NCBI GenBank assembly: GCA_004299275.1
Contig: SCSU01000066.1
Location: forward strand, 14,277 to 78,276
DNA length: 64,000 bases
Source: Patescibacteria group bacterium
Lineage (GTDB): Bacteria > Patescibacteriota > Patescibacteriia > 2-12-FULL-57-11
Direction of reading: 5' to 3'
Positions 133 to 56,892 of this stretch are shown in pieces. Made by a program: the position numbers and the translations under genes. Below the pieces are notes generated by a model. The model was not told the origin of the DNA. It did not search any database and saw nothing but the letters and a program-made list of their open reading frames with translations. Positions within the stretch are counted from its first letter, which is position 1, and each line of letters opens with the position of its first letter.

Positions 133-168
133 GACCTTCAAGGTCTGTTTTACAGACCTTCAAGGTCA
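133..168. repeat. GACCTTCAAGGTC hairpin doublet (TTCAA-loop family), copy 1
   Basis: ttGACCTTCAAGGTCtgttttacaGACCTTCAAGGTCaa. Same architecture as the copies at 7221, 41348 and 59507. Confidence 0.7.
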
Positions 169-4867: not shown

Positions 4868-4995
4868 TTCGCCTTGGAGCGGCTCACCCCTGGGCTTGCG
4901 CCGGTCCGATACCATCGGACCGGCTCGAGCCCGTTCGACTCCCACATTTCGGGAACACTTCGGAAAGCCTCGCATAGAAGCGAGGCTTTCCGAAG

Positions 4996-5078
4996 TGCCT
5001 GGGGTGGGACTCGAACCCACACGGCCTTGCGGCCACTCAATTTTAAGTCGAGCGCGTATACCATTCCGCCACCCAGGC
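4996..5078 (-). tRNA. tRNA-Leu (anticodon TAA), long variable arm
   Basis: 7-bp acceptor stem gcctggg/cccaggc, anticodon loop cttaaaa, T-arm gggttcgagtccc, no encoded CCA. Confidence 0.85.
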
Positions 5079-7220: not shown

Positions 7221-7263
7221 CACGGACCTTGAAGGTCCGTTTTTCAGACCTTTAAGGTCCGTG
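7221..7263. repeat. GGACCTTGAAGGTCC / CAGACCTTTAAGGTCC hairpin doublet, copy 2
   Basis: cacGGACCTTGAAGGTCCgtttttCAGACCTTTAAGGTCCgtg. Confidence 0.75.
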
Positions 7264-7542: not shown

Positions 7543-8084
7543 AATTTAAAAGAGTCCGCTTCCGGCCAGGAAATCCAGCCATTGATTGTCGCTTCGGCGA
7601 CGCCGTCTTTGTCGGTGGAAAACACTTCAATTGTAGCGATGTTAAATAGCGGGTCAATCCGTTCCAGAGCGGAGAGAAATTTGCCGAGGCGGCGGGGATC
7701 GCCGGTTAGCCGCAGCTCAACCGTTAGTTTGCTGTTCAAATCAATCGGACCTCCTTGCGGCGGAATCAGCCGAATTTTTTCCTGAACCGAGTTCGCGGCG
7801 GCCAAATTTTCAATTGTCTCCACCAAGCCGACCTCTTGGCCGCGAGCGAGCGTGAGCGCGCGCAGTTCCGGCAGGTCGTGTTTGATTTTGGTCATATACT
7901 CGATGGTTTTGCGCACTTTCTGCCGATGGAAATAACGTTCTTCAACCATGACGCGTTCGTTGTTGATGAGTCCGCGGATGGAAAGGATTTTTTTGACTGT
8001 CGGGACGATGAGCGCGGCGAAAGTCACGCTGATCAATAGCAGGGCAGTCGCGAGGGACAGGATGATTTTTTGACGTCTGGTCAT
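7539..8084 (-). CDS. pilO: type IV pilus assembly protein PilO-like
   Basis: N-terminal TM helix, then a coiled coil and a periplasmic domain; position directly after pilM-pilN. Confidence 0.5.
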   Translation of the reverse strand: MTRRQKIILSLATALLLISVTFAALIVPTVKKILSIRGLINNERVMVEERYFHRQKVRKTIEYMTKIKHDLPELRALTLARGQEVGLVETIENLAAANSVQEKIRLIPPQGGPIDLNSKLTVELRLTGDPRRLGKFLSALERIDPLFNIATIEVFSTDKDGVAEATINGWISWPEADSFKL

Positions 8085-8818
8085 AAAGTGGAGGTAGCGG
8101 TTTCCCGATTGACGGTGGCCGGGAAAATCGGGGTGGGCACGGCGTCAATTTGCAATCGGCCAGAGAACTCAAAGGGGATATTTTGCTTCACAAACAGGTT
8201 GGAGAGAGGGGACTCCAAGTTGGCGATGAGCGGCGAGGCGGCGAGAGCATCGCGCAGGCGGTTTAAATCTTGGCGTTTTTCGGCGACGCCGCGCAAGAGC
8301 AGATTTTTTCCGGCGATGTTCAAGTGGAGCGTGTTCAGCGCTATTCCCGACGGCACCAGGGCGAGGATGCCGCCGTAGAGGTCGCCGCTCGGGACAAACT
8401 GGCTTTGAATTTTTTGTAGGTTCCTGATTTCCTCGTTCAGCGCGCGGATTTCGCGGTTGCTGGCGCCGAAGGTCGTGGCGATACTCAGCGCTTGTTCAAC
8501 CGATTGGCGAAAATTGACTTCCAGAATATGGCGTCCGACGACAAGGAGCGAGCCCAAGAGCAAGGTCTCAACAAGCAAGACGAAGAACACATTCCTAAAG
8601 GTCAAAGAGATGAGATGACCTCGGAGCGACTTTTTCTGTTCCTCGGTCAGGAGGTTCAACCGCCACTGATTCGGGAACAGCGTCGTGCCCGGCTGCATTT
8701 TGCTCGCCGAGCGCGTCGGCGGAGCCGAGCGCGCGGCGTCCGTAATTTTCGCGAGGAGATTTTTTTGGTGGAGAGGGCGCAGAGGCATAGAGGTCAGCTG
8801 ATAATTCCGTTTCGTCAA
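8081..8818 (-). CDS. pilN: type IV pilus assembly protein PilN-like
   Basis: Single TM helix plus a periplasmic coiled coil; synteny with pilM. The true start may be the ATG in ...tgacctctATGcctctg. Confidence 0.5.
   Translation of the reverse strand: MTKRNYQLTSMPLRPLHQKNLLAKITDAARSAPPTRSASKMQPGTTLFPNQWRLNLLTEEQKKSLRGHLISLTFRNVFFVLLVETLLLGSLLVVGRHILEVNFRQSVEQALSIATTFGASNREIRALNEEIRNLQKIQSQFVPSGDLYGGILALVPSGIALNTLHLNIAGKNLLLRGVAEKRQDLNRLRDALAASPLIANLESPLSNLFVKQNIPFEFSGRLQIDAVPTPIFPATVNRETATSTL
8790..8815. repeat. solo terminal-inverted-repeat (TIR)-like segment of the GAGGTCATCTGAGAATTCCGTTTCG element family
   Basis: gaggtcagctgataattccgtttcgt, preceded by gcatag exactly as in the copy at 13294. 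Confidence 0.5.
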
Positions 8819-8820
8819 CG

Positions 8821-9936
8821 TTAGACGGAGTTCATGTGGCCGGAGGCCTCCATGGGGAGGAATCGCGCCGCGCGCCGCGCTAAACCGAGAGCCGTGGTGA
8901 ACGAGGCCGTTCGCTCGCGCGGGAATTTGTCGGGGATGGTGAGCCCGCCGAGCGGGTTGCCGCGAGAGACGCGCGTGAGCAGTTTTTGCGCCAGGTAGGA
9001 GTCGATTTTGAGCGTGTTGGCGCTGCCGCCGGCAAGCAGAATGCGTCTGACGCGGTGCCCGCCGGGGTTGCCACGGCGGTAGGCGAGTGTCGCGGCGCGG
9101 ACGTCCTCAATCAAGTCGCGCAGGATTCCAGCAACCACCGGACGGATACGATTGCCGCACCGCGCCGGGTCAAGACCGCAGCTGACCTTGGCTTTTTCCG
9201 CTTCCACCAGCGATACCTTGAGCCATTCCGCGATCTGCGCGGTCGCGACATCGCCCGAGAAGGAGAGAGAGGTCGTAAGCTGAATGGTTCCTTGGTCGTA
9301 GATGATAACGTTGGAGCGCGAGGCGCCGAGGTCGAGGACGGCGATGGCTTCGTCGTTTTGGCTCAGGATTTCGATTAGCAGGCCGCGGACAATGGCGATG
9401 GCCTCGATCTCTACCGCGAGGATGGTGAATCCGGCGGCCTCGAGCGCTGTCGAAAAATTTTCCACGAGCTCCCGCGGGGCGACGGCAACAATTACGCGCT
9501 GCCGCTCCGCGGCGGTCACGCCCGGAAGCGGCGGCAAGAGCTGCCAGTCCAGGGTCGCTTCTTCAAAGGCGAGGGGGATATGCGCCGCCGCCTCGCGAAT
9601 GACTTCGTCGCCGATGCGCTCCGATTCAACTTTTGGAATTTCGATGGTTTTGATGAAAGTTGTGGTTTCGGGCAGCGAGACGACGGCACTGCGCGTTTTT
9701 ATCGCTTTCGGCGTCGCCGTGCGGACCACCGCGCGGAGCAGTTTGGCGGCGGTTTCGGCTTGCTCCACCCTGCCCGGGGAAAATACCCCATCGGGCACCC
9801 GAACTTCGTTCCAAGTGCTCAATTCAAGGCGCGGTTTGCCGAAGACCAGCCGGTTGTACTGCAAATCCACCGCTTTAATTGAGCGGTCGCCGATGTCCAG
9901 TCCAAAGGCGTGATACGAGGATTCGAGCGAGGGCAT
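8821..9936 (-). CDS. pilM: type IV pilus assembly protein PilM (actin-like ATPase fold)
   Basis: FGLDIGDRSIKAV N-terminus and the general layout of PilM. Confidence 0.8.
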   Translation of the reverse strand: MPSLESSYHAFGLDIGDRSIKAVDLQYNRLVFGKPRLELSTWNEVRVPDGVFSPGRVEQAETAAKLLRAVVRTATPKAIKTRSAVVSLPETTTFIKTIEIPKVESERIGDEVIREAAAHIPLAFEEATLDWQLLPPLPGVTAAERQRVIVAVAPRELVENFSTALEAAGFTILAVEIEAIAIVRGLLIEILSQNDEAIAVLDLGASRSNVIIYDQGTIQLTTSLSFSGDVATAQIAEWLKVSLVEAEKAKVSCGLDPARCGNRIRPVVAGILRDLIEDVRAATLAYRRGNPGGHRVRRILLAGGSANTLKIDSYLAQKLLTRVSRGNPLGGLTIPDKFPRERTASFTTALGLARRAARFLPMEASGHMNSV

Positions 9937-12359: not shown

Positions 12360-13301
12360 CTAACGGGCGTAGCCGGTCGCCGTCACGTTTTGCGTCCCGA
12401 TCGCCGTGCTCCACTGGATGCGGGTTTTAATTCGCGCCAGATTGCCGCCGGTGAAAGGGTGGTCAATAGTGATGTCGCCCGCGCCTCCGGGCAGGTCGGC
12501 GGCGCTGAGCGTCCGCCAGTCAACCGGAGGCAAGCCGACGGCGTCGGCGTCAAAGCGCCAGGTAGCGGTGGCCGCGCCGGTCACGGCCACGTCATCAAAG
12601 GCCGCGGCTAAATTTCCCATCGCGACCAACGCGAGGTCGCCGGAGCCCCAAGTGGAGTCGGTGACTATGGTGAGCGGGACGCCGTCTTTGGAGAGCGATA
12701 GTTGGCTGCCGCTTGCGGAGATGGCAAGCGTGGTCCAGGTGTCCGGCGCGGCGCTGGTGCTCAAGGTATAGAGTTCGGTCGCGACCCCGTTCGTGAGCCG
12801 TTCCAAAGTTACCGTGGCGGCGCCGAAGGTATAACGGTAAGTATTGCCGAGGTCGCGGCTCCGGAAGAGCAAGCCGGCGCGCCAGCCGCTCGGCGGACTC
12901 GGGGGAACATAGATTGCGGCGGCGAGCGCGCCATTGGCGCTCGGCGGCGTGATGAGCCGTAGAGCGGCAGTTGTGCCGGCAATCGCCGGCGAGGAGGTCG
13001 CGATGGCGAGGACATTGGGGGCCGACGGCGCGCCGGTCTGCGCGCGCACCCACCATTGTCCGCGTTTTTCGGTAAAACCGATGAGCGGCGCGCTGACCCG
13101 GTCGGTGAGCGCTGAGCTCGGCAGGGCAAGCGCGGCGGCGAGCGCGCCCTCGGCGAGCGCTGTCGCCTTGGTTTCGTAATTGACTCGGACTCGGAGCGTG
13201 CGGGCGGAGAGCATGCTGGCGAGCGCGGCAAACATCGCGCCCACGAGCGCGATGGCTACGACGACCTCGAGGAGTGACATTCCGCGGCGCATAGAGGTCA
13301 T
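12360..13301 (-). CDS. type IV pilin-like protein
   Basis: MRRG|MSLLEVVVAIALVG prepilin leader with Glu at +5. The true start is probably the second ATG (13292). Confidence 0.7.
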   Translation of the reverse strand: MTSMRRGMSLLEVVVAIALVGAMFAALASMLSARTLRVRVNYETKATALAEGALAAALALPSSALTDRVSAPLIGFTEKRGQWWVRAQTGAPSAPNVLAIATSSPAIAGTTAALRLITPPSANGALAAAIYVPPSPPSGWRAGLLFRSRDLGNTYRYTFGAATVTLERLTNGVATELYTLSTSAAPDTWTTLAISASGSQLSLSKDGVPLTIVTDSTWGSGDLALVAMGNLAAAFDDVAVTGAATATWRFDADAVGLPPVDWRTLSAADLPGGAGDITIDHPFTGGNLARIKTRIQWSTAIGTQNVTATGYAR

Positions 13302-13457
13302 TTGAGAATTCTGTCCCGCCGTGGTGGGATTACGGGATTTGGAACGAGGCGAGGAGCGACGACGAAGGCGTATATGGAATATACGTCAAGGAGGAGCGAC
13401 CAAGCCGTAGTCCAAATACCGTAATTGCAGCAGAAAAAGGAATTTTCAGATGACCTC
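13294..13457. mobile_element. MITE-like element with 18-bp terminal inverted repeats GAGGTCATTTGAGAATTC / GAATTTTCAGATGACCTC, copy 1 (164 bp)
   Basis: Perfect TIRs. The internal end ...attgcagcagaaaaaggaRttttcagatgacctcat is shared with the copy at 24604-24676. Confidence 0.65.
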
Positions 13458-13462
13458 ATTAT

Positions 13463-14575
13463 CTAAATCGTTTCCGAGAGCGTGTAAATCGGCGAGATAA
13501 TGGCGACGGCAATGCCGGCGACCGCGGCGCCCAAAATCAGGATGAGCAGCGGTTCAATAATCTGGGTGAGGTTGGAGAGCGTCGAGTCCACTTGGGCCTC
13601 GTAAAAATTCGCGACCTCGCCGAGCATCTCATCCAGTTTTCCCGACTGTTCGCCGACCGTGGTCATTTGAATCACGAGCGGCGGAAAAAGCCGAGGGTAT
13701 TTGGCGAAAGACTCGCCGACTTTGGTGCCGCGCCGGAGTTCGTCCTCCGCGGCGACGAGCGCTTTTTGATAGTGGACGTTGCCGACGACCTCGGAAGTGA
13801 TTTGAAACGCTTCAATCACCGGAATTCCCGTGCGGAGCAGAGTCGCGAGCGTGCGGAGCGCGCGGGCGAGATTAACTTTTTTCACGATCGGGCCGATGAT
13901 GTAGAACCTGAGGAACGTCCAGTGGAGCAGTGTTCGGCCGCCGGGCGTCCGGGCGAGATAAACAAGCAGGGCGACGAAGAGCAGCACTCCCAGCGCGACC
14001 AGCGGGCCCCGCGTGGTGATGGCTTGGGAAACTGCTAGGAGAATTTTAGTGGGCAGCGGGAGCTCGGCTTTGAATTCCTTAAAGATGTCCAGGATGCGGG
14101 GCACGACAAAAATGAACAAGGCGATTGAGATCAGCACCGTGGCTGAGAGGGTGATGGCCGGGTACATCAGCGCGCCGCGGATTTTGCCGCGCATGGTCAG
14201 CTCCTTTTTCATCTGCAGTCCGAGTTCTTCCAAAGATTTTTCCAGCGTCCCGGAGACCTCGCCGACCCGGACCATGCTCACAAAAAACGGCGGGAAGTCC
14301 TCGTGGTGGGTGAGCGCGCCGGCAAAGGATTCGCCACGCTCCAACCTTTTCGCGATATCCTGCAGTATCAGCCGCCAGCGCTTTTTTTCCGCCTGCAGAA
14401 TCAGCGTCTCAAAGGCCTGGGTGTAAGAGAGGCCGGCGCGGACCATGACGCGTAGGTTTTCCACGAAAAAAATTTTTTGCGCCAAGGGAATGCCGAGGCG
14501 CGGCAGCCAGGAGCGGCGTTTGCCTTTGGCGTCGGCTGCCGGTTTTTGGGCGGGGTTTTCCGAAGTAGCGGCCAT
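13463..14575 (-). CDS. pilC: type IV pilus platform protein PilC (GspF family)
   Basis: Two T2SS-F repeats and three TM segments. Confidence 0.9.
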   Translation of the reverse strand: MAATSENPAQKPAADAKGKRRSWLPRLGIPLAQKIFFVENLRVMVRAGLSYTQAFETLILQAEKKRWRLILQDIAKRLERGESFAGALTHHEDFPPFFVSMVRVGEVSGTLEKSLEELGLQMKKELTMRGKIRGALMYPAITLSATVLISIALFIFVVPRILDIFKEFKAELPLPTKILLAVSQAITTRGPLVALGVLLFVALLVYLARTPGGRTLLHWTFLRFYIIGPIVKKVNLARALRTLATLLRTGIPVIEAFQITSEVVGNVHYQKALVAAEDELRRGTKVGESFAKYPRLFPPLVIQMTTVGEQSGKLDEMLGEVANFYEAQVDSTLSNLTQIIEPLLILILGAAVAGIAVAIISPIYTLSETI

Positions 14576-14580
14576 GGTGG

Positions 14581-16308
14581 CTAATCTTTGGTTACGCGGA
14601 AGACTTCGGCGAGCGAGGTCAGCCCGCGGGCGGCTTTAACCACGCCGTCATGGAACATGGTGAGCATGCCGTCCGCGTGGGCCTGGCGCTTGAGCTCGTC
14701 CACCCCCGCCCGTTTGGCGATGAGCGCGGCGAGCGCCGGGGTAACCTCCAGAATTTCGTAAATGCCGATGCGGCCGCGATAGCCCTCTTGGTTGCATTTA
14801 CTGCAGCCCACGCCGCGCGCGAGCATGAGCGAGTTCAGACGGGCGGAGGCGGACAGTTCCTTGGCCCGGACCAAGTCGCGGAAGAGTTCCGCCGAACCGC
14901 CGACTCTTCGGTCGAGTTCTTCGAGCTCGGCGGCGGTGATTTTGTAGTTGGTCGAGCAATCCTTACAGACCTTCCGGACCAGGCGTTGGGCGATAATCAG
15001 GTTGGTGGTAAAAGCGACGAGGAACGGCGCGACGCCTAAGTCGTCGAGCCGGGTAATCGCGCTCGGCGCGTCGTTGGTATGGAGGGTGGAGAGCACGAGG
15101 TGGCCGGTCAAGGCCGAGTTCGCGGCGATGTCGGCGGTCTCGTTGTCGCGGATTTCGCCGACCATGATGATGTTCGGGTCCTGGCGGAGGATGGAGCGGA
15201 GGCCGTTCGCGAAAGTGTAGCCGATGCGCGGGGCGACCTGGCTTTGGTTCACGCCGGCCATGCGGTATTCAATCGGGTCTTCCACGGTCACGATGTTGAC
15301 GCCCGGTTTGTTTAAGATGCCGAGGAGCGAATAGAGTGTCGTGGTTTTGCCGGAGCCGGTCGGACCGGTGGCGTAGATAATGCCGTGGGGACGGGTGACG
15401 GCGCGTTCCACGAGCTCGCGCGGCGAGTTTAAGAGTCCTAGTTCTTCCAGAGTCAGGGCCTTAGCGCTCTCGGCCAGGAGCCGCATCACGACTTTTTCCC
15501 CGTCGTAGACGGGCAGAATCGAGACGCGGATGGAGTAGCGGTAGTCCGGCGACTGGACTTTAAAGCGCCCATCCTGCGGCAGGCGGTGCTCGTCAAGTTT
15601 TAAGTTGGCGAGGATTTTGATGCGCGCGAGGACCCCGTCCTGCGCCGCCTTGGGCAGAGTCATCACCTGCCGGAGCACGCCGTCAATGCGGTAACGGATG
15701 GCGAGCGCCTCCTCGGCCGGCTCGATGTGGATGTCCGAGGCGTTCTCGTACGTCGCGTGCTCAAGCAGCGAGTCCACAATGCGCACAATCGGGATGTCCT
15801 CGGCCAATTGTTTAAGGTCCTTTTCTTCCGCTGGTTTACCCTTGGCGGCGCCGGTCGTGAGTTCCTCGAATTCGGCGGTGAGACTCCGGCGGTAGGATTT
15901 GAGCACCGTGGCGATGCCGGCCGGAGTCGTTAAATGCACTTTGACCGGCAGGCCGGCGCGGCGGCGGATGAATTCGAAAGTTTGGAGGTCCTCGGGGTCG
16001 GTCGTGGCAATCAAGACCTCTTTGTCTGTCTGATCGAAAGGGATGACGGAGTGGCTCGCGGCAATCGGCTCGGGAATCAAGAACAAAACATCTTTGCGGA
16101 CAACTTTGGAAGTGAGGTCAATAAAAGGCAGATTGACCAGGCGAGCCAGCTCGCGATAAAGGGCCTCCTCGGAAACGAGGCCGCTTTTAACCAAAAGTGG
16201 TCCGAGCAGGGTGTGTTCCTTCTCCGCCTGCGCCGCGGTTTTGCGCAGGGCCGAGGCGGGAATGATAGTGGAGTGCCGGAGCAGACGAGTGAGACGGATG
16301 TCAAGCAT
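14581..16308 (-). CDS. pilB: type IV pilus assembly ATPase PilB (GspE family)
   Basis: Walker A GPTGSGKTTTLYS, Walker B and Asp/His boxes, and a CxxC...CxxC zinc motif at the C-terminus. Confidence 0.95.
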   Translation of the reverse strand: MLDIRLTRLLRHSTIIPASALRKTAAQAEKEHTLLGPLLVKSGLVSEEALYRELARLVNLPFIDLTSKVVRKDVLFLIPEPIAASHSVIPFDQTDKEVLIATTDPEDLQTFEFIRRRAGLPVKVHLTTPAGIATVLKSYRRSLTAEFEELTTGAAKGKPAEEKDLKQLAEDIPIVRIVDSLLEHATYENASDIHIEPAEEALAIRYRIDGVLRQVMTLPKAAQDGVLARIKILANLKLDEHRLPQDGRFKVQSPDYRYSIRVSILPVYDGEKVVMRLLAESAKALTLEELGLLNSPRELVERAVTRPHGIIYATGPTGSGKTTTLYSLLGILNKPGVNIVTVEDPIEYRMAGVNQSQVAPRIGYTFANGLRSILRQDPNIIMVGEIRDNETADIAANSALTGHLVLSTLHTNDAPSAITRLDDLGVAPFLVAFTTNLIIAQRLVRKVCKDCSTNYKITAAELEELDRRVGGSAELFRDLVRAKELSASARLNSLMLARGVGCSKCNQEGYRGRIGIYEILEVTPALAALIAKRAGVDELKRQAHADGMLTMFHDGVVKAARGLTSLAEVFRVTKD

Positions 16309-17045: not shown

Positions 17046-17120
17046 CGCGGGTATCGTATAGCGGCTATTATGCCACCTTGCCAAGGTGGAGATGGGGGTT
17101 CAACTCCCCCTACCCGCTCC
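17046..17120 (+). tRNA. tRNA-Gly (anticodon GCC)
   Basis: Acceptor gcgggta/tacccgc, anticodon loop ttGCCaa, T-arm gggggttcaactccccc, CCA encoded. Confidence 0.85.
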
Positions 17121-17121
17121 A

Positions 17122-17160
17122 AGAAAACACGCTCCTCTTCACGAGGGGCGTGTTTTCTTT
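17122..17160 (+). terminator. hairpin terminator after tRNA-Gly
   Basis: gaaaacacgctcctcttcacgaggggcgtgttttcttt. Confidence 0.6.
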
Positions 17161-17215
17161 GTAGTCGGTCGTGGGGAGTTGAACCTGCCTGCCGGCTGGC
17201 AGGCGGCAGAAGCGA

Positions 17216-23836: not shown

Positions 23837-24463
23837 ATGAAAAAAATTATTGTAAGCACGATCGGCTTAATAGGATTAAGTTTTTCTCTTGCCGGTTTTG
23901 CTTTGGCGCAAGGAATGCCCGCTGCGACGAGTACAGACGGAAACACGGCGCGCGAAGAAGCTGAGGGCAAGGCTGTTTGGGATAAACTGCAAGCGAAAAC
24001 GTTCGCCTGTGACAAGCTAACGAATGACAACCTCGAACTTTTGGGCGAATACTTTATGGGACAGATGGCGGGGACTGCCCATGAAGCGATGAATAACATG
24101 ATGCTTCAGATGATGGGTGAAAATAACGAGGCACAAATGCACATTACGCTCGGCAAGCGACTTTCCGGTTGCGATAAAGCCGCGGCATTTCCTCTGCAGG
24201 GCGCCGGTTTTATGCCGATGATGCAGATGATGATGGGCGGCGGCATGATGGGCGGGTGGTCTGCCCGCCAAAGCCTTGGCGACGGCGGGTCAAACTCATC
24301 CTCACTAAATAATTTTAATAATCCTATGATGGGGAATTGGGGTCAAAATCCAATGGGGTGGGTTGGAGTTGGTTCGTGGCTCGTAACCTTAACTTGGGTA
24401 GTCTGGCTGGCTGTCGGCGTTCTGGCGGCAATTTGGCTGTGGCGGCAGATTAACAAAAAATAA
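23837..24463 (+). CDS. secreted Met/Gly-rich protein with a C-terminal TM helix
   Basis: Signal peptide, MQMMMGGGMMGGW and NMMLQMMGENNEAQMH Met-rich tracts, and a C-terminal hydrophobic helix. Confidence 0.6.
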   Translation: MKKIIVSTIGLIGLSFSLAGFALAQGMPAATSTDGNTAREEAEGKAVWDKLQAKTFACDKLTNDNLELLGEYFMGQMAGTAHEAMNNMMLQMMGENNEAQMHITLGKRLSGCDKAAAFPLQGAGFMPMMQMMMGGGMMGGWSARQSLGDGGSNSSSLNNFNNPMMGNWGQNPMGWVGVGSWLVTLTWVVWLAVGVLAAIWLWRQINKK

Positions 24464-24603
24464 ATCAACCCATTCGACACTGCGGGCTAAAGCCCGCGTT
24501 ATGCTCAGGGTTGATACTGAGCCGCGCCTTAAACCGCGCCCTTTAGGGCACGGTTTGGCGCGAGTCGAAGTATCAAAAAAATGGCGCCAAAAATTTGAAA
24601 TTG

Positions 24604-24676
24604 AGGTCATCTGAGAATTCCGTTTCGTAGCGAAATTACGCGATTGCAGCAGAAAAAGGAGTTTTCAGATGACCTC
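24604..24676. mobile_element. MITE-like element, copy 2 (73 bp), TIRs GAGGTCATCTGAGAATTC / GAGTTTTCAGATGACCTC
   Basis: Perfect inverted termini; internal gcagcagaaaaagga shared with copy 1. Confidence 0.65.
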
Positions 24677-24690: not shown

Positions 24691-25338
24691 ATGCCCGAGC
24701 GCGGATTTGACCCCAACAGAACAATAATCGGCGAGTGGCGGCCGACGCCGGAAGATTTGGCGCGTCTGCCCGAAGAGCTCCGCAAAAATTTTGAGCGGAC
24801 TGCGCTGGAAGTCCCCCGTCCCGCGGGGGAGCGGAGGCGGGAAAAGCGCGCTGAGGCGGAAGCCGCCGCCGAAGCGCCGCCGGCTCTTGAATCCTTTGTC
24901 GCTGATGAGGCGGCCAATTATTTAGAGAGCGCGCGAACGACAGAGAGCTTGCTTTTGGCTGACCAGGAAGCCGTTCAACGCAAGGCATTCTCCGATACCA
25001 TCATGCCCATTGGCGAGGAATCCTACACCGATGCTCTGGTGCGCCACATCCAGCAGCTGGAGCAGTCGCAGATAGCGCTCCGCGACAGCATTCTCGCCGA
25101 CCGGATGCGCGCCGACTCGCTCCTTGAGGGAATTGAGGCCATCGGCCGCGGCGAACCGCCGCCGGCGGACTTTAAGGCGACCTTGGATTTGATTGAGAGA
25201 GAAGCCGTCACGGCGGTCGGCAGCAGGAGCGCCGAATTGGAGAAAAACCCAAATGCGCTGGGTTATAAGGAAGAGCTGAAAAAAGCGCAAAAGCGGCTTA
25301 AGACTATTGCCGATTTGCGGCGTAAGGCAGGTGTTTAA
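24691..25338 (+). CDS. hypothetical coiled-coil protein
   Basis: 215 aa, charged and helical; followed by a terminator. Confidence 0.5.
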   Translation: MPERGFDPNRTIIGEWRPTPEDLARLPEELRKNFERTALEVPRPAGERRREKRAEAEAAAEAPPALESFVADEAANYLESARTTESLLLADQEAVQRKAFSDTIMPIGEESYTDALVRHIQQLEQSQIALRDSILADRMRADSLLEGIEAIGRGEPPPADFKATLDLIEREAVTAVGSRSAELEKNPNALGYKEELKKAQKRLKTIADLRRKAGV

Positions 25339-27922: not shown

Positions 27923-29656
27923 CCTAACCGTTAGTTCGGTGCACGCCGCTTGGGAGCCCCCGAGCGGTTTTTCGTTTCTAAGAGCTTCCGCGTTTGGCGC
28001 ATTGTGTTGACGAGACGTTGTCTTTGGCCACTGACGCTAGTGGGTGTCCAAAGTTCAGCGGAACGTGGCGGGACTTTGACAATTTAATGACGAATAAAAA
28101 GGGTAATGAAAAATAGCTCCATAAGCGCGAAAAGGACGTTTTCGTGCTTCAGTGGAGTGAGAGCATACACTAAGGGCAAACGGTGGATGCCTCGACACAA
28201 GAAGCCGATGAAGGACGTAGCAGCCTGCGATAAGCCCCGGGGAAGTGGCAAGCAACTTTTGATCCGGGGATTTCCGAATGGGGAAACCCATCGTGCTGGA
28301 AGAGCACGGTATCGTGCGCTGAATCCATAGGCGTACGAAGGGCACCTGGCGAAGTGAAACATCTCAGTAGCCAGAGGAAGAGAGACAAAAAATGCTGACC
28401 CAACAGACAACCGACAACTTACAACGAACAACCGAAAGGTTGGGAGTTGTTCGTTGATCGTTGTCCGTTGCGTCAGCTGGATTCCCCTAGTAGTGGCGAG
28501 CGAACGGGGACCAGCCGAAACTCCAGGCGTGATTCACCGAACTGACCCCGACTTTACGTCGGGGCGCAGACGGCTGATGAAGGTGTAGGCCGCTGCGCCT
28601 GGAGGGTAACAGGATCGTGACGTCGGACGCCTACTCGTCCGGGTAGAGGAAACCGCAAGGACATGTCTTCCCAAGCAGAATCCGCTGGAAAGCGGAACCA
28701 GAGCGGGTGATAGTCCCGTACGCGAATGGGGACATAACTCTACTGTCGCGAACCCTCAGTACCGCGGGTCTCGTGAAAGCCTGCGGGAAAGCGCCGCGAC
28801 TATGCGGCAAGGCTAAATACTTCTTGTGATCGATAGTGAACCAGTACCGTGAGGGAAAGGTGAAAAGCAGCCCGGAAGGGCGATGAAACAGTATCTGAAA
28901 CCGTTTGCTTACAAGGAGTCAGAGCCGTGCGCAGCACGGCGACTATCAACTACCAACTATCAACAAAACAACGGTCAATAATTCTGTTGCCCGTTGTGTG
29001 TTGTAAGTTGTGTGTTGGTTGTTGCCGCGCTGTGCGCGGTGATGGCGTTCCTATTGAAGAATGAGCCAACGAGTTTGCCGTGCGTCGCTTAGGTTAAGTC
29101 CCTGAGGGGACGAAGCCGGAGCGAAAGCGAGTCTGAATAGGGCGTATGGACTTTAGAGGCGGAGTTGGAGCCGGCGCGCAAGCGTCAAACCTCCAACTTC
29201 TCACCTCTAATTTCCAAAGGTGGCGCACGCAAGACCCGAAACCCGGTGACCTAGCCATGACCAGGGTGAACTCCGCCGAAAGGCGGAGGGAGGCCCGAAC
29301 CCGTAAGCCGTGCAACACTTTGGGATGAGTCGTGGTTAGCGGAGAAATTCCAATCGAACTGGGTGATAGCTGGTTCTCCCCGAAATAGCTTGAGGGCTAG
29401 CGTCGGTTACACCTCGCGAGGGGTAGAGCACTGAAAGGAAAGCGGTGGAGCAATCCTACGCGTTCCTACCAAACTCCGAATACTCGCGGGGCATCCCGGC
29501 AGTCAGAGCATGGGGGCTAAGCTCCATCGCTCAAAAGGGAAACAGCCCAGATCGCAGTCTAAGGCCCCTAAATCTTCCCGACCTAAAGTCGGGACTCCGA
29601 CACCGCAAGGTCGTCGGAGCGGTTAAGTGTCAAAGGTTGTGGAGTAACTTAAACAA

Positions 29657-29687
<31 letters not shown>

Positions 29688-30780
29688 TAAAGAAAGCGTA
29701 ACAGCTCACTGGTCAAGTCGCTCTGCGCCGAAAATATACCGGGGCTAAAACCGAGTGCCGAAGACGCGACTCCGACGTAAGTCGGAGGGTAGGGGAGCAT
29801 TCTGTCCGCGCTGAAGCCGCGCCGTAAGACGCGGTGGAGCGAACAGAAGGGAGAATGTTGGCATAAGTAGCAAAAAGACGGGTGAGAACCCCGTCCGCCG
29901 TAAACCCAAGGTTTCCTGGGCAACGCAAATCGTCCCAGGGTTAGTCGGTCCTAAGGCGAGGCCAAGAGGCGTAGCCGATGGATGAGCAGGTTAATATTCC
30001 TGCACTACGGCCGTGTCAGGCGCGAGAGGACGCGTCGCAATATCTTCCGAGTTCGAAGGCTACACTTCCGGTGTCGCAAGCCGGCCGCGAGGCAAATCCC
30101 GCGGCGCAAAGCAAGCGATGCCGGCTAGTCTGCGAGTAATCGCGGGCAAGGGAAGAAAATGTGGCGCCTAGAAAAGTCTCGCGATAACGGCATGGCCGCA
30201 CCCGTACCGGAAACCGACACAGGTGGGTGGGCATAAGTGTGCCCAGGCGTACGAGAGAAACATCGTTCAGGAACTCGGCAATACAGCGGCCGTAACTTCG
30301 GGATAAGGCCTACCCCGACGTAAAGTCGGGGTCGCAGCGAAAGACGCTTAGCGACTGTTTACCAAAAACACAGGTCCCTGCGAAGTCGAAAGACAATGTA
30401 TAGGGGCTGATGCCTGGCCAGTGTCAGAACGTTACGGGGAGAGGTCATGGCCGACGCAAGTCGGCCGGCAGCCTTGAACCTAAGCGCTGATGAACGCCGG
30501 CGATAACTATAATCGTCCTAAGGTTCCCTGAATCACTGGCAAGTGGTTCCGGGTAGGACTGGGACGATTATCGAATGGTGAACAAGCAAGCTACCTTGCT
30601 CTGCAGCAATGCAGAGAAAAAGTCCGTTAATGGCTAAATACCTACGTTTCCGAAGAACTAGGTAGGGAAGTCCGATTTTTCGGACCCCGAGAGACCATAC
30701 GCCATGCTCCCGACATACCGTCGGGATGAAGACATGGTCCTTCGTTTAAGGAATCGGAGAGCGAAATTCCTTGTCGGGTG

Positions 30781-30811
<31 letters not shown>

Positions 30812-31050
30812 GAGCGACTGTCTTAACGATGTACTCGGCGAAATTGCAAGATGAGTGAAGATGCTCATTACCCGTGGTTAGACGAAAAGACCCCGTGAAG
30901 CTTTACTACAACTTGCTATTGGCTGCATGCTTCGCCTGTTCAGCGTAGGTGGGAGGTCCGACGAAAGTCGGACCAACAATGAGACACCACCCTTGCGCTG
31001 CGTGCAGTCTCATCTCCGGCCGTGATCCGGCTGGGGAGACAGTAGCTGGT

Positions 31051-31096
<46 letters not shown>

Positions 31097-31166
31097 TTTA
31101 CCAAGGTCGGCTTAGCTCCGATGGAAACGGAGCTGGACGTGCAAGCGCACAAGCCGGCTTTACTGC

Positions 31167-31198
<32 letters not shown>

Positions 31199-31268
31199 AA
31201 GCTAGTGATCCGACCGTTCGAAGTAGGACGGCGGAAGCTCATCGGATAAAAGCTACTCCGGGGATAAC

Positions 31269-32119
31269 CCCAAAAGGGTTGTTGTCCCGATCCGACGGTA
31301 ACGTCGGATCATGAAAACGGCTAATAACGGTGGAGTCCCGCCAGGCGGGATAATACCGTGGGAAGTTCTTCGTCTCATCATCATAATTATGATTGAACGC
31401 GAACGAAATATCGTGATTGGTTGCGTACTTGGCGACGGTTTTCTCCAATCGACCGGAAGACATAACGCGCGGCTGCGGCTCGAGCATTCCATCAAACAGA
31501 AGGAATATCTCGAGTGGAAGTGGCGCGAACTGGCGCGCTATATGCAAGATCGCCCCAAGCGCCTGGTTCGTTGGAATCCGGTTTGGAAAAAACGTTACGA
31601 GTATCTGCGATGCCAATCGCACAGTTCGCCGCAATTCGGCAAGCTTCGGGAATTATTCTATCGCGATCAGACGCGGCAGGTTCCCGATGAGATAGCCAAG
31701 TTGCTGCGCTCGCCGCTCTCGTTGGCGGTTTGGTTTATGGATGACGGATATTACTATACGCGAGATCGCGTAGCGTATATCTATCTTCCTAAACTATCCG
31801 CCGATGACATTCGGCGTTTGTGTCAAGCATTAAATGATGATTTTGATCTTCATCCGAAGGTCGAACGCAAGAAAACTGGGGCACTAAACCTCAAATTTTC
31901 TGCGGCAGAAACGAAAAAATTAATTAAGATAATCGCCCCGCATATAATCAAAAGTATGCGGTACAAAATCGGCGAAGAACCCCGTATCGACTGAGTCCTA
32001 TGGACGAGGTGGCGCAGAGGAGGGAATATCCGCGCCACAATATGCCGTACTCCTTGTCTGGCGAGACAAGGATGAAGATATAGTCAGTGCCCTTAGTAAT
32101 AAGGGAGTAAAACATGAAC
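31269..32119 (+). mobile_element. group I intron 1 in the 23S peptidyl-transferase region (after GGGGATAAC), carrying a LAGLIDADG ORF
   Basis: The exon sequence GATAAC|AGGCTGATC is split by ~850 nt. Confidence 0.75.
31311..31994 (+). CDS. LAGLIDADG homing endonuclease (intron-encoded)
   Basis: Two LAGLIDADG-type motifs, [11 protein letters not shown] and [10 protein letters not shown]. Confidence 0.85.
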
Positions 32120-32200
32120 AGGCTGATCGGGTCCAAGAGTCCACATCGACGACCCGGTTTGGCACCTCGATGTCGGCCCGTCGCATCCTGGGGCTGGAGA

Positions 32201-32937: not shown

Positions 32938-32965
32938 GAGGTCCCAAGGGTTTGGCTGTTCGCCA

Positions 32966-33288
<323 letters not shown>

Positions 33289-33630
33289 TCGGTCTCCTAT
33301 CTACCACGGGCGCAGAAACTTGCGGGGGCGCTCTCTCAGTACGAGAGGACCGGAGAGCACGAACCTCTTGTGTACCAGCTGTCCTGCCAAGGGCATCGCT
33401 GGGTAGCGAAGTTCGGAACGGATAAACGCTGAAAGCATCTAAGCGTGAAGCCGTCCCCAAGATTAGGTTTCATTACGAGACCCCAGAGAGATGATCTGGT
33501 TGATCGGCGGCAGGTGTAAGGCCCGCAAGGGTTTGAGCCGAGCCGTACGAATCGGTCCAGTGTGCTCCTCTAACCACTGAAGCACGAAGCCGTTCTTCAT
33601 TACCTATTTATTCGTCAATTTCAAAAGACA

Positions 33631-43435: not shown

Positions 43436-43747
43436 ATGCCGGTACAAAGTAAAAGGCGGTTTCGATTCCTGCGATTCACGGCGTCAGTCGAGCTCGCGCA
43501 CAACGTGATCGACGGACCCCAAGAGATGCGAGTTCTCTCGGAGATTGACGCGGAAGACGGCTGGCTCATCACTCTGAACTCCGGCTGGTTCGAAATCCGA
43601 ATGTGGCGCGATGGACACTGGCTCGATGAGGGCGGCGGCTTAGTGGAACGCGCTCGCATCGCGGCGGCCATCCCCTACGAGTACCCGGACGGCACGGAGA
43701 TCTCGGAGGAATTTCCGGATGACCTTTATCCGGAACGGTACGGATGA
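43436..43747 (+). CDS. small hypothetical protein
   Basis: Start chosen at MPVQSKRRF; acidic C-terminus. Confidence 0.4.
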   Translation: MPVQSKRRFRFLRFTASVELAHNVIDGPQEMRVLSEIDAEDGWLITLNSGWFEIRMWRDGHWLDEGGGLVERARIAAAIPYEYPDGTEISEEFPDDLYPERYG

Positions 43748-43984: not shown

Positions 43985-45560
<1,576 letters not shown>

Positions 45561-48749: not shown

Positions 48750-48911
48750 GAGGTCATCTGAAAATTCCAGATTTGGTCGAAATCGCCCAGTTTTGGCTGC
48801 ACCGACCTTCTCGACCCTCACAAGATACTCCGTATATTGTTCGGGTCTGCGGCGGCCGGCTCGCTCAAAACTGGACAATTTCGCTTCAAAAGCGAATTTT
48901 CAGATGACCTC
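48750..48911. mobile_element. MITE-like element, copy 3 (162 bp), TIRs GAGGTCATCTGAAAATTC / GAATTTTCAGATGACCTC
   Basis: Perfect 18-bp inverted termini; the interior is unrelated to copies 1 and 2. Confidence 0.6.
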
Positions 48912-48912
48912 T

Positions 48913-49245
48913 CTATATTTTGAGGTCATCAAGCGCGTCAAGCGACAAGGGGTCGCCTCCCGCTGCTCCGCCGCCGCGTTCCCGGCCCTGGCGCGAGCCC
49001 TCAGGTTCGTAAATCTTCAGACTCACGCGGGCGTTGGACTTGGCGCCGACGGCGCGGACGAGACGGCGGAGCGACTCCGCGGTCTTGCCGTCCTTGCCGA
49101 TGACGTAACCCATGTCCTCAGGGTTGACGTGCAGAGTGATGAGCACTCCTTCGTTGTCCACCTTCCGTTCGGTTTTGACGTCTTCCGGATGGTTGACGAT
49201 GGCTTTGACGATGTATTCAACAAATTGTTGTTCAACTTCGGCCAT
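48913..49245 (-). CDS. KH-domain RNA-binding protein (YlqC/UPF0109-like)
   Basis: VIGKDGKTAESLRRLV KH motif; located between rpsP and trmD as in the canonical operon. Start chosen at MAEVEQQ. Confidence 0.75.
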   Translation of the reverse strand: MAEVEQQFVEYIVKAIVNHPEDVKTERKVDNEGVLITLHVNPEDMGYVIGKDGKTAESLRRLVRAVGAKSNARVSLKIYEPEGSRQGRERGGGAAGGDPLSLDALDDLKI

Positions 49246-55757: not shown

Positions 55758-56360
55758 ATGAGCAATCCTTACGAAATTCGCAGTCAATTTTTGATTCCGA
55801 CAGTGATTGAAAAAACTTCCTACGGCGAACGGGCTTATGATATTTATTCCCGTTTACTTAAGGACCGCATAATTTTTCTCGGTGACGAAATCCATGACGG
55901 CCTGGCCAACACCGTCATCGCCCAGATGCTTTTTTTGGAAAGCCAGGACAAAGAAAAAGACATTAAGCTCTACATCAATTCTCCGGGCGGCTCGGTGACC
56001 GCCGGCATGGCGGTCTACGACACCATGCAGTACATCAAGCCGGATGTTTCCACCATCTGTATCGGCTTGTCCGCCTCGATGTCGGCCATCCTGCTCGCCG
56101 CGGGAAAAAAGGGGAAGCGTTTTGTCCTGCCCAATTCCGAAATCATGATTCACCAGATTATGGGCGGCGCCGAGGGTCAGGCCACGGACATCAAAATCCG
56201 CGCCGAGCGCATTCTCAAAATGAAGCAACGTTTAAACGAGCTTTTGGCCCGCCACACCGGGCAAAAAATTGAAAAGGTGGAAAAGGACTCCGACCGCGAT
56301 TATTTTATGTCGCCGACCGAGGCGGTTGCCTATGGTTTGGCGGACAAGATCATCTCTTAG
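55758..56360 (+). CDS. clpP: ATP-dependent Clp protease proteolytic subunit
   Basis: [15 protein letters not shown]..., catalytic Ser/His/Asp context, IMIHQ. Confidence 0.95.
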
Positions 56361-56484
56361 CCCGTTGCAAAACTCGCGATCTGTCGGCTTGCGTGGCCCC
56401 GCCACCCCCTCAACGTACGTTTTAAGTACGCCTCGGGGGCTGGCTACCCCGCGTGCCGACATCTCATCAAGTTTTGCAACGGTC
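56361..56484. repeat. ~125-bp imperfect palindromic element CCGTTGCAAAACT...AGTTTTGCAACGG
   Basis: agcccgttgcaaaactcgcgatctgtcggc...gccgacatctcatcaagttttgcaacggtctg; second family member at 51565-51735. Confidence 0.55.
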
Positions 56485-56892
56485 TGCGTGCCCTCTTGAC
56501 AGTAAAAACACGCTGTGATAACTTATCGGGTCGCACTGCTTAAGGTTTGGCTTTCCCAAACCGCTCCGACGTGAGGTCGGGGCATAAGCGACTCCTCATG
56601 TCCCCGCCTTGGCGGGGTTGCGGACGAGCGCTTTATTTATGCCGAGAGACCAGCGCTCACGACAAGCATGGAGGCTCGTAACAGGTTTACTCTGGCCTCG
56701 GCTAGATTTCTCCTGCTTCGAACCTTCTTGAGCGCTGTACGTTCGGCAAAAAGAGAGCTCTCCTTTGCGCCAAAAAATCCCCCGCGGGGGATTTTTGGTT
56801 TTTTACCACCTTCGCCGAAAGCCACGGGTGAATACCCGTGGCTGCATGTGGAAAGGATAACCCACCGGTAGCCTAAGCGAAGGCGGGTGTGC

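What the first reader, a model, noticed from the sequence alone, without database searches (positions are those of the whole stretch)
13294..13457. MITE-like elements with 18-bp TIRs (GAGGTCATCTGARAATTC) that also place a TGACCTCTATG start context in front of pilus genes
Full copies of 164, 73 and 162 bp lie at 13294-13457, 24604-24676 and 48750-48911, each with perfect terminal inverted repeats; a solo TIR lies at 8790-8815. Copies 1 and 2 share their internal right end, while copy 3 shares only the TIRs. The TIR contains ATGACCTC. At 13292 (pilin, leader MRRG|MSLLE) and 8788 (pilN) the start ATG directly follows ...tgacctct. The elements may therefore have been co-opted as 5'-UTRs or promoters, or the TIR may be a regulatory motif propagated by the element.
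Basis: seen in the sequence. Interest (0 to 1): 0.6.

Follow-up and report, generated by a model that had tools for sequence, protein, structure and literature searches.

The report
Hairpin MITEs in a Patescibacteria genome
These are small non-coding mobile DNA elements (MITEs) that carry the end sequence of an IS5-type transposon and fold into long hairpins, and they sit in short gaps between genes, including inside the type IV pilus operon; a new family of an ordinary kind of element rather than a new regulatory system.

Summary
The repeat is real. The 18-mer GAGGTCATCTGARAATTC has 8 matches with up to 3 mismatches in the window, against 0.03 expected. It bounds three elements: 13294-13457 (164 bp), 24603-24676 (74 bp) and 48750-48911 (162 bp). 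There is also a solo end at 8790-8820.

Two details in the finding are wrong. Only copy 3 has perfect TIRs (copies 1 and 2 are 16/18). Copy 3 is homologous to the others along its whole length, but inverted.

Each element is one long hairpin. Across five long copies from four genomes the TIR stem is invariant in sequence. The inner stem varies but keeps pairing (24 of 55 pairs change on both sides; 0 of 500 shuffles reach this).

The same 18 nt form the exact terminus of an 864-bp IS5-family insertion sequence with a 3-bp TAA duplication, and of its relatives. The window copies show 3-bp flank repeats: 2 of 7 perfect, 14 of 21 positions matching, P about 0.02. Relatives with the same pilus operon lack the element, and their pilin starts MRKG directly after pilC. 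The pilin ATG is therefore ancestral and was not supplied by the element. No promoter consensus was found.

Verdict: a new MITE family in Patescibacteria. A regulatory role is not shown. Any effect on pilin translation is inference only.

The parts
13294..13457 (+). Copy 1: full-length element, 164 bp, written in its A-to-B orientation (plus strand). It lies between the pilC stop (13463) and the pilin ATG (13292), both on the minus strand. TIRs are 16/18.
   Evidence: 162.7 bits. RNA fold -78 kcal/mol (z -9.3) on the plus strand and -55 (z -6.2) on the minus strand.
24603..24676 (+). Copy 2: 74-bp derivative lacking the apical ~90 nt. Both ends and the sub-terminal sequences are retained. TIRs are 16/18. 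It lies between two plus-strand ORFs of unknown function (23837-24463 and 24691-25338).
   Evidence: 75 bits on plus, 41 on minus. Its ends align with L109.
48750..48911 (-). Copy 3: full-length element, 162 bp, with its A-to-B orientation on the minus strand. TIRs are 18/18 and the flanks carry a TCT/TCT repeat. It lies between convergent genes, 1 nt after the stop of a KhpA-like KH-domain gene (48913-49353, minus strand) and next to an intrinsic terminator at 48706-48736.
   Evidence: (144 bits on minus, 66 on plus).
8790..8820 (+). Solo A-end fragment (GAGGTCAGCTGATAATTC plus CGTTTCGTCAACG). It fills the spacer between the pilM stop (8821) and the pilN ATG (8788).
   Evidence: The interior 8 nt match the A end of copy 2, and the relatives have 1-3 nt spacers at this junction.
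48921..48930 (+). Isolated terminal 10-mer TGAGGTCATC, 9 nt from copy 3 and inside the last codons of the KH-domain gene. It may be a relic of another insertion.
43709..43726 (-). Weak TIR-like match (15/18, AAGGTCATCCGGAAATTC), with no partner arm. It may be a decayed solo end or chance.
56358..56486 (-). 129-nt hairpin with different ends (CCGTTGCAAAACT / AGTTTTGCAACGG) and an apex resembling the family apex (GAGGCGTACTT...GTACG). It lies between convergent clpP and vanW-like genes. It is either a distant relative or a separate hairpin family.
   Evidence: 29 bits, E about 3.5e-5; -79.7 kcal/mol, z -9.4.
13298..13459 (-). 53-codon ORF that runs through copy 1 on the operon strand. Its ATG is rebuilt from the duplicated target (AT) plus the first TIR base (G). 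Its stop TGA (13300-13298) lies in the far TIR and overlaps the TIR ATG (13301-13299), which is in frame with the pilin ATG at 13292.
   Evidence: Sequence reading; frame analysis. The peptide is not conserved between copies, and its function is inferred only.
12360..13292 (-). Pilin-like gene with leader MRRG|MSLLE, directly downstream of copy 1.
   Evidence: N_methyl motif, E 0.0011, below the Pfam cutoff; leader comparison with the relatives.
13463..14575 (-). pilC (T2SSF family), directly upstream of copy 1.

Best explanation
[quoted passage not shown] They are non-coding, non-autonomous derivatives of an IS5-family insertion sequence, and they are moved in trans by a DDE transposase that recognises the 18-19-bp terminal inverted repeat (T)GAGGTCATCTGARAAYTC and makes a 3-bp target duplication.

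They have landed in the few A/T-rich non-coding nucleotides between tightly packed genes. Two of these sites are junctions of the type IV pilus operon. One copy has since lost its apex (copy 2) and one has decayed to a solo end (8790).

Beyond the TIR, the whole element is an imperfect palindrome that is kept as a hairpin. The element has a fixed polarity, with conserved non-palindromic sub-terminal and apical segments that are purine-rich on one strand.

Shown here: the repeat, its structure, covariation, polarity, distribution, empty sites in relatives, and identity of the terminus with IS5-family ends. Inferred: transposition itself, the identity of the mobilising transposase (none was found in the window), and why the hairpin is maintained. 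The hairpin could be kept by selection, so that read-through transcripts fold the insert out of the way, or by arm-to-arm templated repair.

For copy 1, the sequence permits non-polar expression of the pilin. The ancestral initiation site now opens a 53-codon frame that crosses the element and stops at an ATGA overlap 9 nt before the ancestral pilin ATG. This is an inference, not a result.
For: Repeat significance: 8 hits against 0.03 expected.

Long hairpins: z-scores -6 to -12.5.

Common polarity of all copies: same-orientation alignment scores exceed the reverse-complement scores for all 10 pairs, and the covariance model prefers one strand for every copy.

Structure: 93.4% of cells are paired, against 32-44% with slid partners. 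24 of 55 pairs change on both sides, and 0 of 500 shuffles reach this. In the TIR helix, 14 of 19 pairs never vary. In the inner helix, 11 of 17 pairs change on both sides.

Other copies in different contexts: Saccharibacteria MAGs L011 (161 bp) and L041 (55 bp), Parcubacteria MAG L096 (cut off, next to a tRNA), and metagenome contigs L109 (163 bp) and L111 (174 bp).

Empty sites: relatives with the same operon order (PilC 56-68% identical) have no TIR. In L118, pilC TGA-G-ATG leads straight into the pilin, and pilM TGA-T-ATG leads straight into pilN.

Target duplications: TCT/TCT (copy 3) and AAT/AAT (L109) are perfect, three more copies match 2 of 3, and 14 of 21 positions match overall, shuffle P about 0.02.

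IS link: L121 2896-3759 is an 864-bp element with ends GAGGTCATCTGAGAATTC (18/18 identical to the A end of copy 2) and GAGGTCGTCTGGAAATGT, flanked by TAA/TAA. It encodes DUF4096 (E 1.3e-12) and DDE_Tnp_1 (E 1.2e-5) fragments, with NCBIfam transpos_IS5_3 as the best model. Its 249-251-aa relatives have ends TAA|GAGGTCGTCTGAGAATTT and TAA|GAGGCCGTCTGAGAATAT. Six contig ends of one Ardenticatenaceae MAG finish in ...GGAATTTTCAAATGACCTC followed by T[TA]A. A 3-nt insertion site and a size near 0.9 kb are reported for IS1031/IS427-type IS5 elements (PMC2516522).

No Rfam family matches.
Against: No transposase of this type was found in the window (20 large ORFs scanned) or in any Patescibacteria DNA held (tblastn). 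The IS elements with this terminus come from other organisms: a bin labelled as a giant-virus MAG, marine metagenomes, and Chloroflexota.

The flank repeats are perfect in only 2 of 7 copies, and they are not the TAA/TNA seen at the IS copies.

The empty sites come from distant relatives only, so recent mobility is not shown.

DDE transposition does not require the strong covariation of the inner stem, the conserved polarity, or the purine-rich unpaired segments (63-84% purine on one strand in all five long copies). These features hint at an additional constraint.

Genome-wide copy number is unknown.
Confidence: 0.8

Rival explanations
1. The elements are, or have become, structured RNA elements under selection. 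One possibility is intercistronic hairpins processed by RNase III or acting as stability or translation-coupling modules that set pilin expression relative to pilC. Another is small RNA genes of A-to-B polarity. On this view the TIR stem serves as the closing helix and the mobile-element origin is secondary.
For: The inner stem covaries strongly while its sequence diverges completely. The A-to-B strand folds more stably than its complement in all 7 complete copies, by 6-23 kcal/mol. Unpaired positions are 63-84% purine on that strand, and G:U pairs outnumber A.C pairs 14 to 5. Non-palindromic sub-terminal segments are conserved across genomes. Relatives carry unrelated hairpins at the same pilC-pilin (L116) and pilM-pilN (L114) junctions. 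RNase III cleavage of MITE TIR stems in transcripts is documented for Correia elements (PMC10969869).
Against: Copies lie in both orientations relative to neighbouring genes: antisense polarity in the pilus operon and L011, sense in copy 2, copy 3 and L109. No promoter or U-tract terminator is associated with them. Truncated, apex-deleted and solo-end copies exist. The G:U count is biased because the structure was predicted on that strand, and 14 against 5 is not significant. Arm-to-arm templated repair of a DNA palindrome would give the same covariation without selection. There are no expression data.
Confidence: 0.15
2. The 18-mer palindrome pair is a protein-binding regulatory site (an operator) or a DNA-uptake-type signal linked to the type IV pilus and competence machinery. 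On this view the elements merely carry it around.
For: Two of the sites lie in the pilus operon. The core AGGTCATCTGAA is 11/12 identical to a Neisseria DUS dialect (from memory), and Neisseria DUS copies turned up in the scan. Saccharibacteria are reported to be naturally competent (PMC10633639, abstract).
Against: Sub-words of the TIR of 9 nt or more occur almost only at element ends: 5 to 8 copies in 64 kb, against roughly one DUS per kb in Neisseria (from memory). The other copies sit beside unrelated genes (KH-domain protein, hypothetical genes, tRNA, a P-loop gene). The sequence is the terminus of IS5-family elements in unrelated organisms.
Confidence: 0.03
3. The copies are chance or assembly artefacts, or simple intrinsic terminators that happen to share a stem.
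For: Copy 3 and the 56.4-kb hairpin lie between convergent genes, where terminators are expected.
Against: The statistics. There is full-length homology with copies in independent assemblies from other samples. No U-tract follows the stems. Copy 1 sits inside an operon. An independent Logan assembly of the same population contains the same pilC-element junction (L113).
Confidence: 0.01

Closest known systems
Bacterial MITEs in general (Correia/NEMIS of Neisseria, ERIC of enterobacteria, Nezha, Chunjie of Geobacter uraniireducens)
   Same: They are 50-250 bp, non-coding, bounded by TIRs and intergenic. They have size variants, and partial copies that look like solo ends. They fold into very stable RNA hairpins. 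Chunjie sits inside an operon without breaking it (PMC3184786, PMC10969869). Correia TIR stems in transcripts are cut by RNase III (PMC10969869).
   Different: There is no sequence relationship. Chunjie has 21-bp TIRs and 9-bp direct repeats (PMC3184786), whereas this family has 18-19-bp TIRs and about 3-bp repeats. The host lineage is Patescibacteria, for which the MITE review read here lists nothing (0 mentions in PMC10969869; no co-mention). The marked inner-stem covariation and fixed purine-rich polarity are not standard features reported for these families.
IS5-family insertion sequences of the small DUF4096 + DDE_Tnp_1 type (NCBIfam transpos_IS5_3; IS1031/IS427-like groups)
   Same: The outer 18 nt are identical or nearly so: GAGGTCATCTGAGAATTC in L121, GAGGTCGTCTGAGAATTT in L130, GAGGCCGTCTGAGAATAT in L134. 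The duplication length is 3 bp, and the terminus starts with GAG. A 3-nt insertion site is reported for the IS1031 group (PMC2516522).
   Different: The window elements have no transposase and share nothing with these IS elements beyond the TIR. Their flank repeats are not TAA/TNA. The IS copies found are from other organisms, and assignment to a named ISfinder group was not tested.
REP/BIME elements and integron attC sites (repeats conserved in structure but variable in sequence)
   Same: They are imperfect palindromes whose pairing is conserved while the sequence drifts. They have strand polarity and lie in intergenic DNA.
   Different: REPs are 20-40 nt, have no TIR-defined ends, and are linked to RAYT transposases. 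attC sites have RYYYAAC/GTTRRRY cores, lie in cassette arrays and need an IntI integrase. None of these features is present here (from general knowledge; no integrase or RAYT among the ORFs scanned).

Membership tests
MITE | Small size (under about 300 bp) and no transposase or conserved ORF | tested here: met
   Copies are 55-174 bp. A stop-free frame exists on one strand, but the peptide is not conserved and frames shift between copies.
MITE | Terminal inverted repeats | tested here: met
   18-19-bp TIRs, 16-18/18 within copies and near-invariant between genomes.
MITE | Target-site duplication flanking each copy | tested here: inconclusive
   With 3-bp flanks, 2 of 7 are perfect (TCT, AAT), 3 of 7 match 2 of 3, and 2 of 7 are poor. 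14 of 21 positions match, shuffle P about 0.02.
MITE | Multiple dispersed copies in a genome | tested here: met
   There are 3 complete copies, 1 solo end and 1-2 fragments in 64 kb.
MITE | Presence/absence polymorphism (empty sites) | tested here: met
   The element is absent from the orthologous pilC-pilin and pilM-pilN junctions of L114, L118 and L119. These relatives are only 56-68% identical in PilC, so no strain-level comparison was possible.
MITE | TIRs matching an autonomous IS that can supply transposase | tested here: inconclusive
   The termini match IS5-family elements exactly. No such IS was found in the window or in any Patescibacteria DNA held.
IS5 family, small IS5_3 / IS1031-like type (as source of the ends) | Terminus GAG..., about 0.85-0.9 kb, DUF4096 + DDE_Tnp_1 transposase | tested here: met
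   This holds for the reference IS (L121, 864 bp) and its relatives. The window elements share only the terminus.
IS5 family, small IS5_3 / IS1031-like type (as source of the ends) | 3-bp duplication of a TNA/TAA target | tested here: not met
   The length (3 bp) fits, but the sequence does not. The window and related copies show TCT, AAT, ATA/ATT, ATT/ATC and ACT/AGT, whereas the IS copies and the Ardenticatenaceae ends show TAA/TTA.
Known structured RNA families (Rfam 15, including 6S and Y RNA types) | Match to a curated covariance model | tested here: not met
   There are no gathering-score hits. Only sub-threshold matches to generic hairpins such as miRNA precursors appear.
DNA uptake sequence (DUS/USS) | Hundreds to thousands of dispersed copies per genome, including inside genes | tested here: not met
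   TIR sub-words of 9 nt or more occur only 3-8 times in 64 kb, nearly all at element ends.

The most novel reading that the evidence does not exclude
The hairpin interior is maintained by selection at the RNA level. On this reading the elements have been domesticated as fold-out intercistronic modules. In the pilus operon, the copy between pilC and the pilin would couple pilin translation to a through-ORF ending at an ATGA overlap in the TIR, or would be an RNase III processing site. A selfish MITE would thereby become a tuner of the pilin:PilC ratio in an episymbiotic, ultrasmall bacterium. Unrelated hairpins recur at the same junctions in relatives, which would then reflect convergent use.
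Probability: 0.12. Interest if true: 0.55.

Novelty: new member of a known kind. Interest (0 to 1): 0.3.

Why it matters
Patescibacteria (CPR) have tiny, gene-dense genomes, and their mobile-element content is poorly described. The MITE review read here does not mention them. This result documents a MITE family shared by several Patescibacteria assemblies (labelled Saccharibacteria, Parcubacteria and unclassified).

It ties the family's ends to an IS5 subgroup that is spread across very different hosts. It also shows that such elements can sit in the 1-3-nt junctions of the type IV pilus operon, a machine central to the episymbiotic lifestyle, apparently without destroying the operon.

Practically, the elements explain some assembly breaks: a Logan contig ends inside copy 1. 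They can mislead ORF callers, because the longest pilin ORF starts at the TIR ATG. They could also serve as strain markers.

The strongly covarying inner stem is a clean small data set for asking whether bacterial palindromic repeats are kept by selection or by templated repair.

Tried and rejected
1. DUS-like uptake signal: rejected on k-mer counts.

2. Known RNA family (6S-like rod, Y RNA and others): no Rfam hit, even at E up to 10.

3. My own reading of 8790-8842 as a degenerate complete copy: withdrawn after comparing PilM C-termini.

4. Element-encoded peptide: a stop-free frame exists on the pyrimidine-rich strand in 6 of 7 copies. However, the chance per long copy is 0.2-0.36, the peptide is not conserved and frames shift between copies.

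5. The outward-facing SD-like sequence plus ATG in the TIR as a general start-codon donor: only copy 1 is in frame with its neighbour, and the others hit stops within a few codons.

6. Promoter inside the element: no sigma-70 consensus in copies 1 or 2, and one weak 9/12 match in copy 3.

7. Parent IS in the window: none among 30 ORFs scanned.

8. Parent IS among the 129 fetched loci: only L121.

9. Extending the source genome beyond the window: only short Logan contigs were retrievable.

10. Sliding-window hairpin census: my filter was too permissive to be informative.

11. L110/L112 from the metagenome scan: they match the search pattern but not the model, so I treat them as unrelated.

12. 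My recollection that Chunjie is an IS5-type MITE with a TWA duplication: wrong according to PMC3184786 (21-bp TIRs, 9-bp repeats).
Full report

Yes. GAGGTCATCTGARAATTC has 8 matches with up to 3 mismatches in 64 kb. The expectation from dinucleotide-preserving shuffles is 0.03, and no shuffle reached 8. Six matches form the two ends of three elements, at 13294-13457 (164 bp), 24603-24676 (74 bp) and 48750-48911 (162 bp). One match is the end at 8790, and one is a weak 15/18 match at 43709.

Only copy 3 has perfect 18/18 TIRs. Copies 1 and 2 are 16/18, and their differences are transitions. Sub-words of the TIR of 9 nt or more occur almost only at these ends. The motif is therefore not a dispersed signal such as a DNA uptake sequence.

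**2. Anatomy**

Every element folds as a single long hairpin far beyond the TIR. Copy 1 gives -78 kcal/mol (z -9.3) on the plus strand and -55 on the minus strand. Copy 3 gives -73 on plus and -91.5 (z -12.5) on minus. Copy 2 gives -38.6 and -28.

The elements are not symmetric. All copies can be put in one orientation, which I call A to B:
- The A end is the TIR followed by yGTTTCGTAGCGAAATT.
- The B end is ATTGCAGyAGAAAAAGG followed by the TIR and an A.

In that orientation the interiors align with each other and not with each other's reverse complements. For example, copy 3 against L109 scores 23 against 2. A covariance model built from five long copies scores copy 3 at 144 bits on the minus strand against 66 on the plus strand. 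Copy 2, and L041 in another genome, are the same element with the apex deleted.

I first took the 8790 copy for a degenerate complete copy. Comparison with relatives showed that the supposed second arm is the conserved end of pilM.

**3. Relatives elsewhere**

The genome-collection scan with the 18-mer returned mostly chance single hits, as expected for 596 Gb. It also returned paired ends in two Saccharibacteria MAGs (L011, 161 bp; L041, 55 bp) and a cut-off copy next to a tRNA in a Parcubacteria MAG (L096). A paired-end pattern in the metagenome collection found L109 (163 bp) and L111 (174 bp). All are confirmed by the model.

The window itself is from an NCBI 'Patescibacteria group bacterium' MAG. 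The family is thus shared by several Patescibacteria genomes with G+C of 45-57%, always in different gene contexts.

**4. Structure conservation**

I aligned five long copies from four genomes:
- 93.4% of cells in the 55 predicted pairs are standard pairs, against 32-44% when partners are slid by 1-3 columns.
- 24 pairs show changes on both sides.
- None of 500 column shuffles reaches the observed values.
- In the TIR helix, 14 of 19 pairs never vary.
- In the 17-bp inner helix, 11 pairs change on both sides.
- The A-to-B strand folds better than its complement in all 7 complete copies.
- Unpaired positions are 63-84% purine on that strand.

The pattern is a sequence-constrained terminus, as for a protein-binding site, plus a structure-constrained interior with fixed polarity. 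Whether the interior is kept by selection (RNA or single-stranded DNA) or by arm-to-arm templated repair of a DNA palindrome cannot be decided from five sequences.

**5. What the ends are**

In a viral/metagenome collection, the same 18-mer lies at three copies of one repeat in a bin labelled as a giant-virus MAG. One of these, L121 2896-3759, is a complete 864-bp element:
- Its ends are GAGGTCATCTGAGAATTC (identical to the A end of copy 2) and GAGGTCGTCTGGAAATGT.
- It is flanked by TAA/TAA.
- It encodes fragments of an IS5-family transposase: DUF4096 (E 1.3e-12) and DDE_Tnp_1 (E 1.2e-5), with NCBIfam transpos_IS5_3 as the best model.

Intact relatives of 249-251 aa have ends TAA|GAGGTCGTCTGAGAATTT, TAA|GAGAGCGTCTGACAAAAT and TAA|GAGGCCGTCTGAGAATAT. 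Six contig ends of an Ardenticatenaceae MAG finish in ...GGAATTTTCAAATGACCTC followed by T[TA]A, which is the signature of a multi-copy element that breaks assemblies.

The TIR is therefore the characteristic terminus of a subgroup of small IS5-family elements that duplicate 3 bp. A 3-nt insertion site and a length near 0.9 kb are reported for IS1031/IS427-type elements (PMC2516522).

The window copies have 3-bp flank repeats that are perfect in copy 3 (TCT) and L109 (AAT) and match 2 of 3 in copies 1, 2 and L111. Overall 14 of 21 positions match, with shuffle P about 0.02. They are not TNA, which is a difference from the IS copies.

No transposase of this kind was found in the window or in the other Patescibacteria DNA held.

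**6. The pilus-gene context**

The minus strand carries, in transcription order:
- pilB (14581-16308)
- pilC (13463-14575)
- copy 1
- a pilin-like gene (12360-13292)
- two more genes
- pilM (8821-9936)
- the solo end
- pilN (8081-8788)

This is shown. Relatives with PilC 56-68% identical have the same gene order and no TIR. In L118 the junctions are pilC TGA-G-ATG (pilin leader MRKG|FTLVE) and pilM TGA-T-ATG.

The window pilin start, MRRG|MSLLE, is therefore ancestral. The element was inserted into a spacer of about 3 nt. On the operon strand the flanks read AAT|element|TAT-G, so the AT of the start codon lies in the duplicated target. That explains the shared TGACCTC-T-ATG without any 'start context' function.

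Other copies abut a stop codon (copy 3), a tRNA (L096), or provide the last codons of a gene (L041). Orientation relative to neighbours is mixed. The promoter scan finds nothing in copies 1 and 2. I therefore do not support the promoter or regulatory-motif reading.

**7. How can an operon tolerate a 164-nt, -55 kcal/mol hairpin 1 nt before the pilin ATG?**

The sequence offers one answer, which I mark as inference. At the pilC side, the duplicated AT plus the first TIR base rebuilds an ATG (13459-13457) in the ancestral initiation context. That frame is open through the whole element. It stops at TGA (13300-13298) inside the far TIR. This TGA overlaps the TIR ATG (13301-13299, forming ATGA), which is in frame with the pilin ATG at 13292 and would give MTS-MRRG|MSLLE.

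Translation of this through-ORF would melt the hairpin and deliver ribosomes to the pilin start. The stop-free frame occurs in 6 of 7 copies, but it is only weakly beyond what the composition predicts. The idea needs experiments.

Relatives carry unrelated hairpins in the same spacers: L116 at pilC-pilin and L114 at pilM-pilN. This may mean only that these spacers are the permissive landing sites.

**8. Comparison with known elements, and novelty**

The elements behave like classical bacterial MITEs. Chunjie is the nearest analogue in behaviour: a hairpin-forming element inside an operon. It has 21-bp TIRs and 9-bp repeats and is unrelated (PMC3184786). Correia elements show that TIR stems in mRNAs can be RNase III targets (PMC10969869).

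No Rfam family matches. No paper in the library contains the TIR sequence. The MITE review read here does not mention Patescibacteria.

I classify this as a new member of a known kind. Interest is modest. The residual interesting point is the strongly covarying, polar interior.

Noticed in passing
window 28160-33560: The 23S rRNA gene is interrupted in its 3' third by about 1.85 kb of intervening sequence. It contains two LAGLIDADG homing-endonuclease ORFs (31311-31994 and 32318-32794) and a group I intron (32887-33227). The whole-window Rfam hit ended falsely at 31397, but a restricted scan aligns LSU model positions 2098-2912 to 30900-33559. The 16S gene is unlinked and on the opposite strand (43989-45566).
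   Followed up: partly
window 134-166, 7226-7258, about 41354-41386, 59512-59545: Four intergenic sites each carry two tandem palindromes, CAGACCTTSAAGGTCYG, separated by TTTTTA. This looks like a paired operator motif of an unidentified regulator. Similar ACCTT-N-AAGGT palindromes occur in the Anaerolineae loci L029 and L086.
   Followed up: no
window 17047-17189, 61539-61675, 4933-5078: Three tRNA genes (Gly, Glu, Leu-taa) are each followed by a terminator-like hairpin and then an inverted copy of their own T-arm (for example GGGGAGTTGAACC). This gives 84-96-nt hairpins of about -60 kcal/mol. In L096 a tRNA is flanked by an inverted repeat that extends its acceptor stem. The meaning is unknown.
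   Followed up: no
window 56358-56486: A 129-nt hairpin (-79.7 kcal/mol, z -9.4) lies between convergent clpP and vanW-like genes. Its apex resembles the MITE apex but its ends are different (CCGTTGCAAAACT / AGTTTTGCAACGG).
   Followed up: partly
L116 about 9838-9935; L114 about 15845-15915: Relatives with the same pilus operon carry unrelated long hairpins in the same spacers. L116 has a 21-bp perfect stem, GATGTAGGGAATAGCGATAGG, between pilC and the pilin. L114 has a GAAGCGTAAGC... hairpin between pilM and pilN.
   Followed up: partly
L004, L050, L051, L064, L073, L080 (Ardenticatenaceae MAG CAYXUZ01); L029, L035, L086 (Anaerolineae MAG): Chloroflexota assemblies have multi-copy elements with the same terminal 18-22 nt. 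Six contig ends in one MAG are each followed by T[TA]A. In the other MAG, three loci have the 18-mer at one end of a different repeat of about 150 nt.
   Followed up: partly
L121, L124, L125 (IMG/VR bin GVMAG-M-3300020182-33): A bin labelled as a giant-virus MAG carries at least three copies of an IS5-family element. One copy is complete but has a fragmented transposase. The closest intact relatives include a hit from a eukaryotic alga data set (EukProt, Pinguiococcus).
   Followed up: partly
L003, L090 (Neisseria sicca, N. perflava): The TIR core AGGTCATCTGAA differs by one base from a Neisseria DNA-uptake-sequence dialect (AGGTCGTCTGAA, from memory). The Neisseria hits of the 18-mer scan are DUS copies. 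This is probably coincidence.
   Followed up: partly
L111 2734-3273: The ORF that begins on the TIR ATG next to the L111 copy looks by eye like a truncated rve-type (IS481/IS3-like) transposase. It was not scanned against any library.
   Followed up: no
window 12360-13301: The longest ORF for the pilin starts at the ATG inside the TIR (13301), 9 nt upstream of the ancestral ATG. Automatic annotation may therefore report a prepilin with a leader that is 3 aa longer (MTSMRRG).
   Followed up: yes
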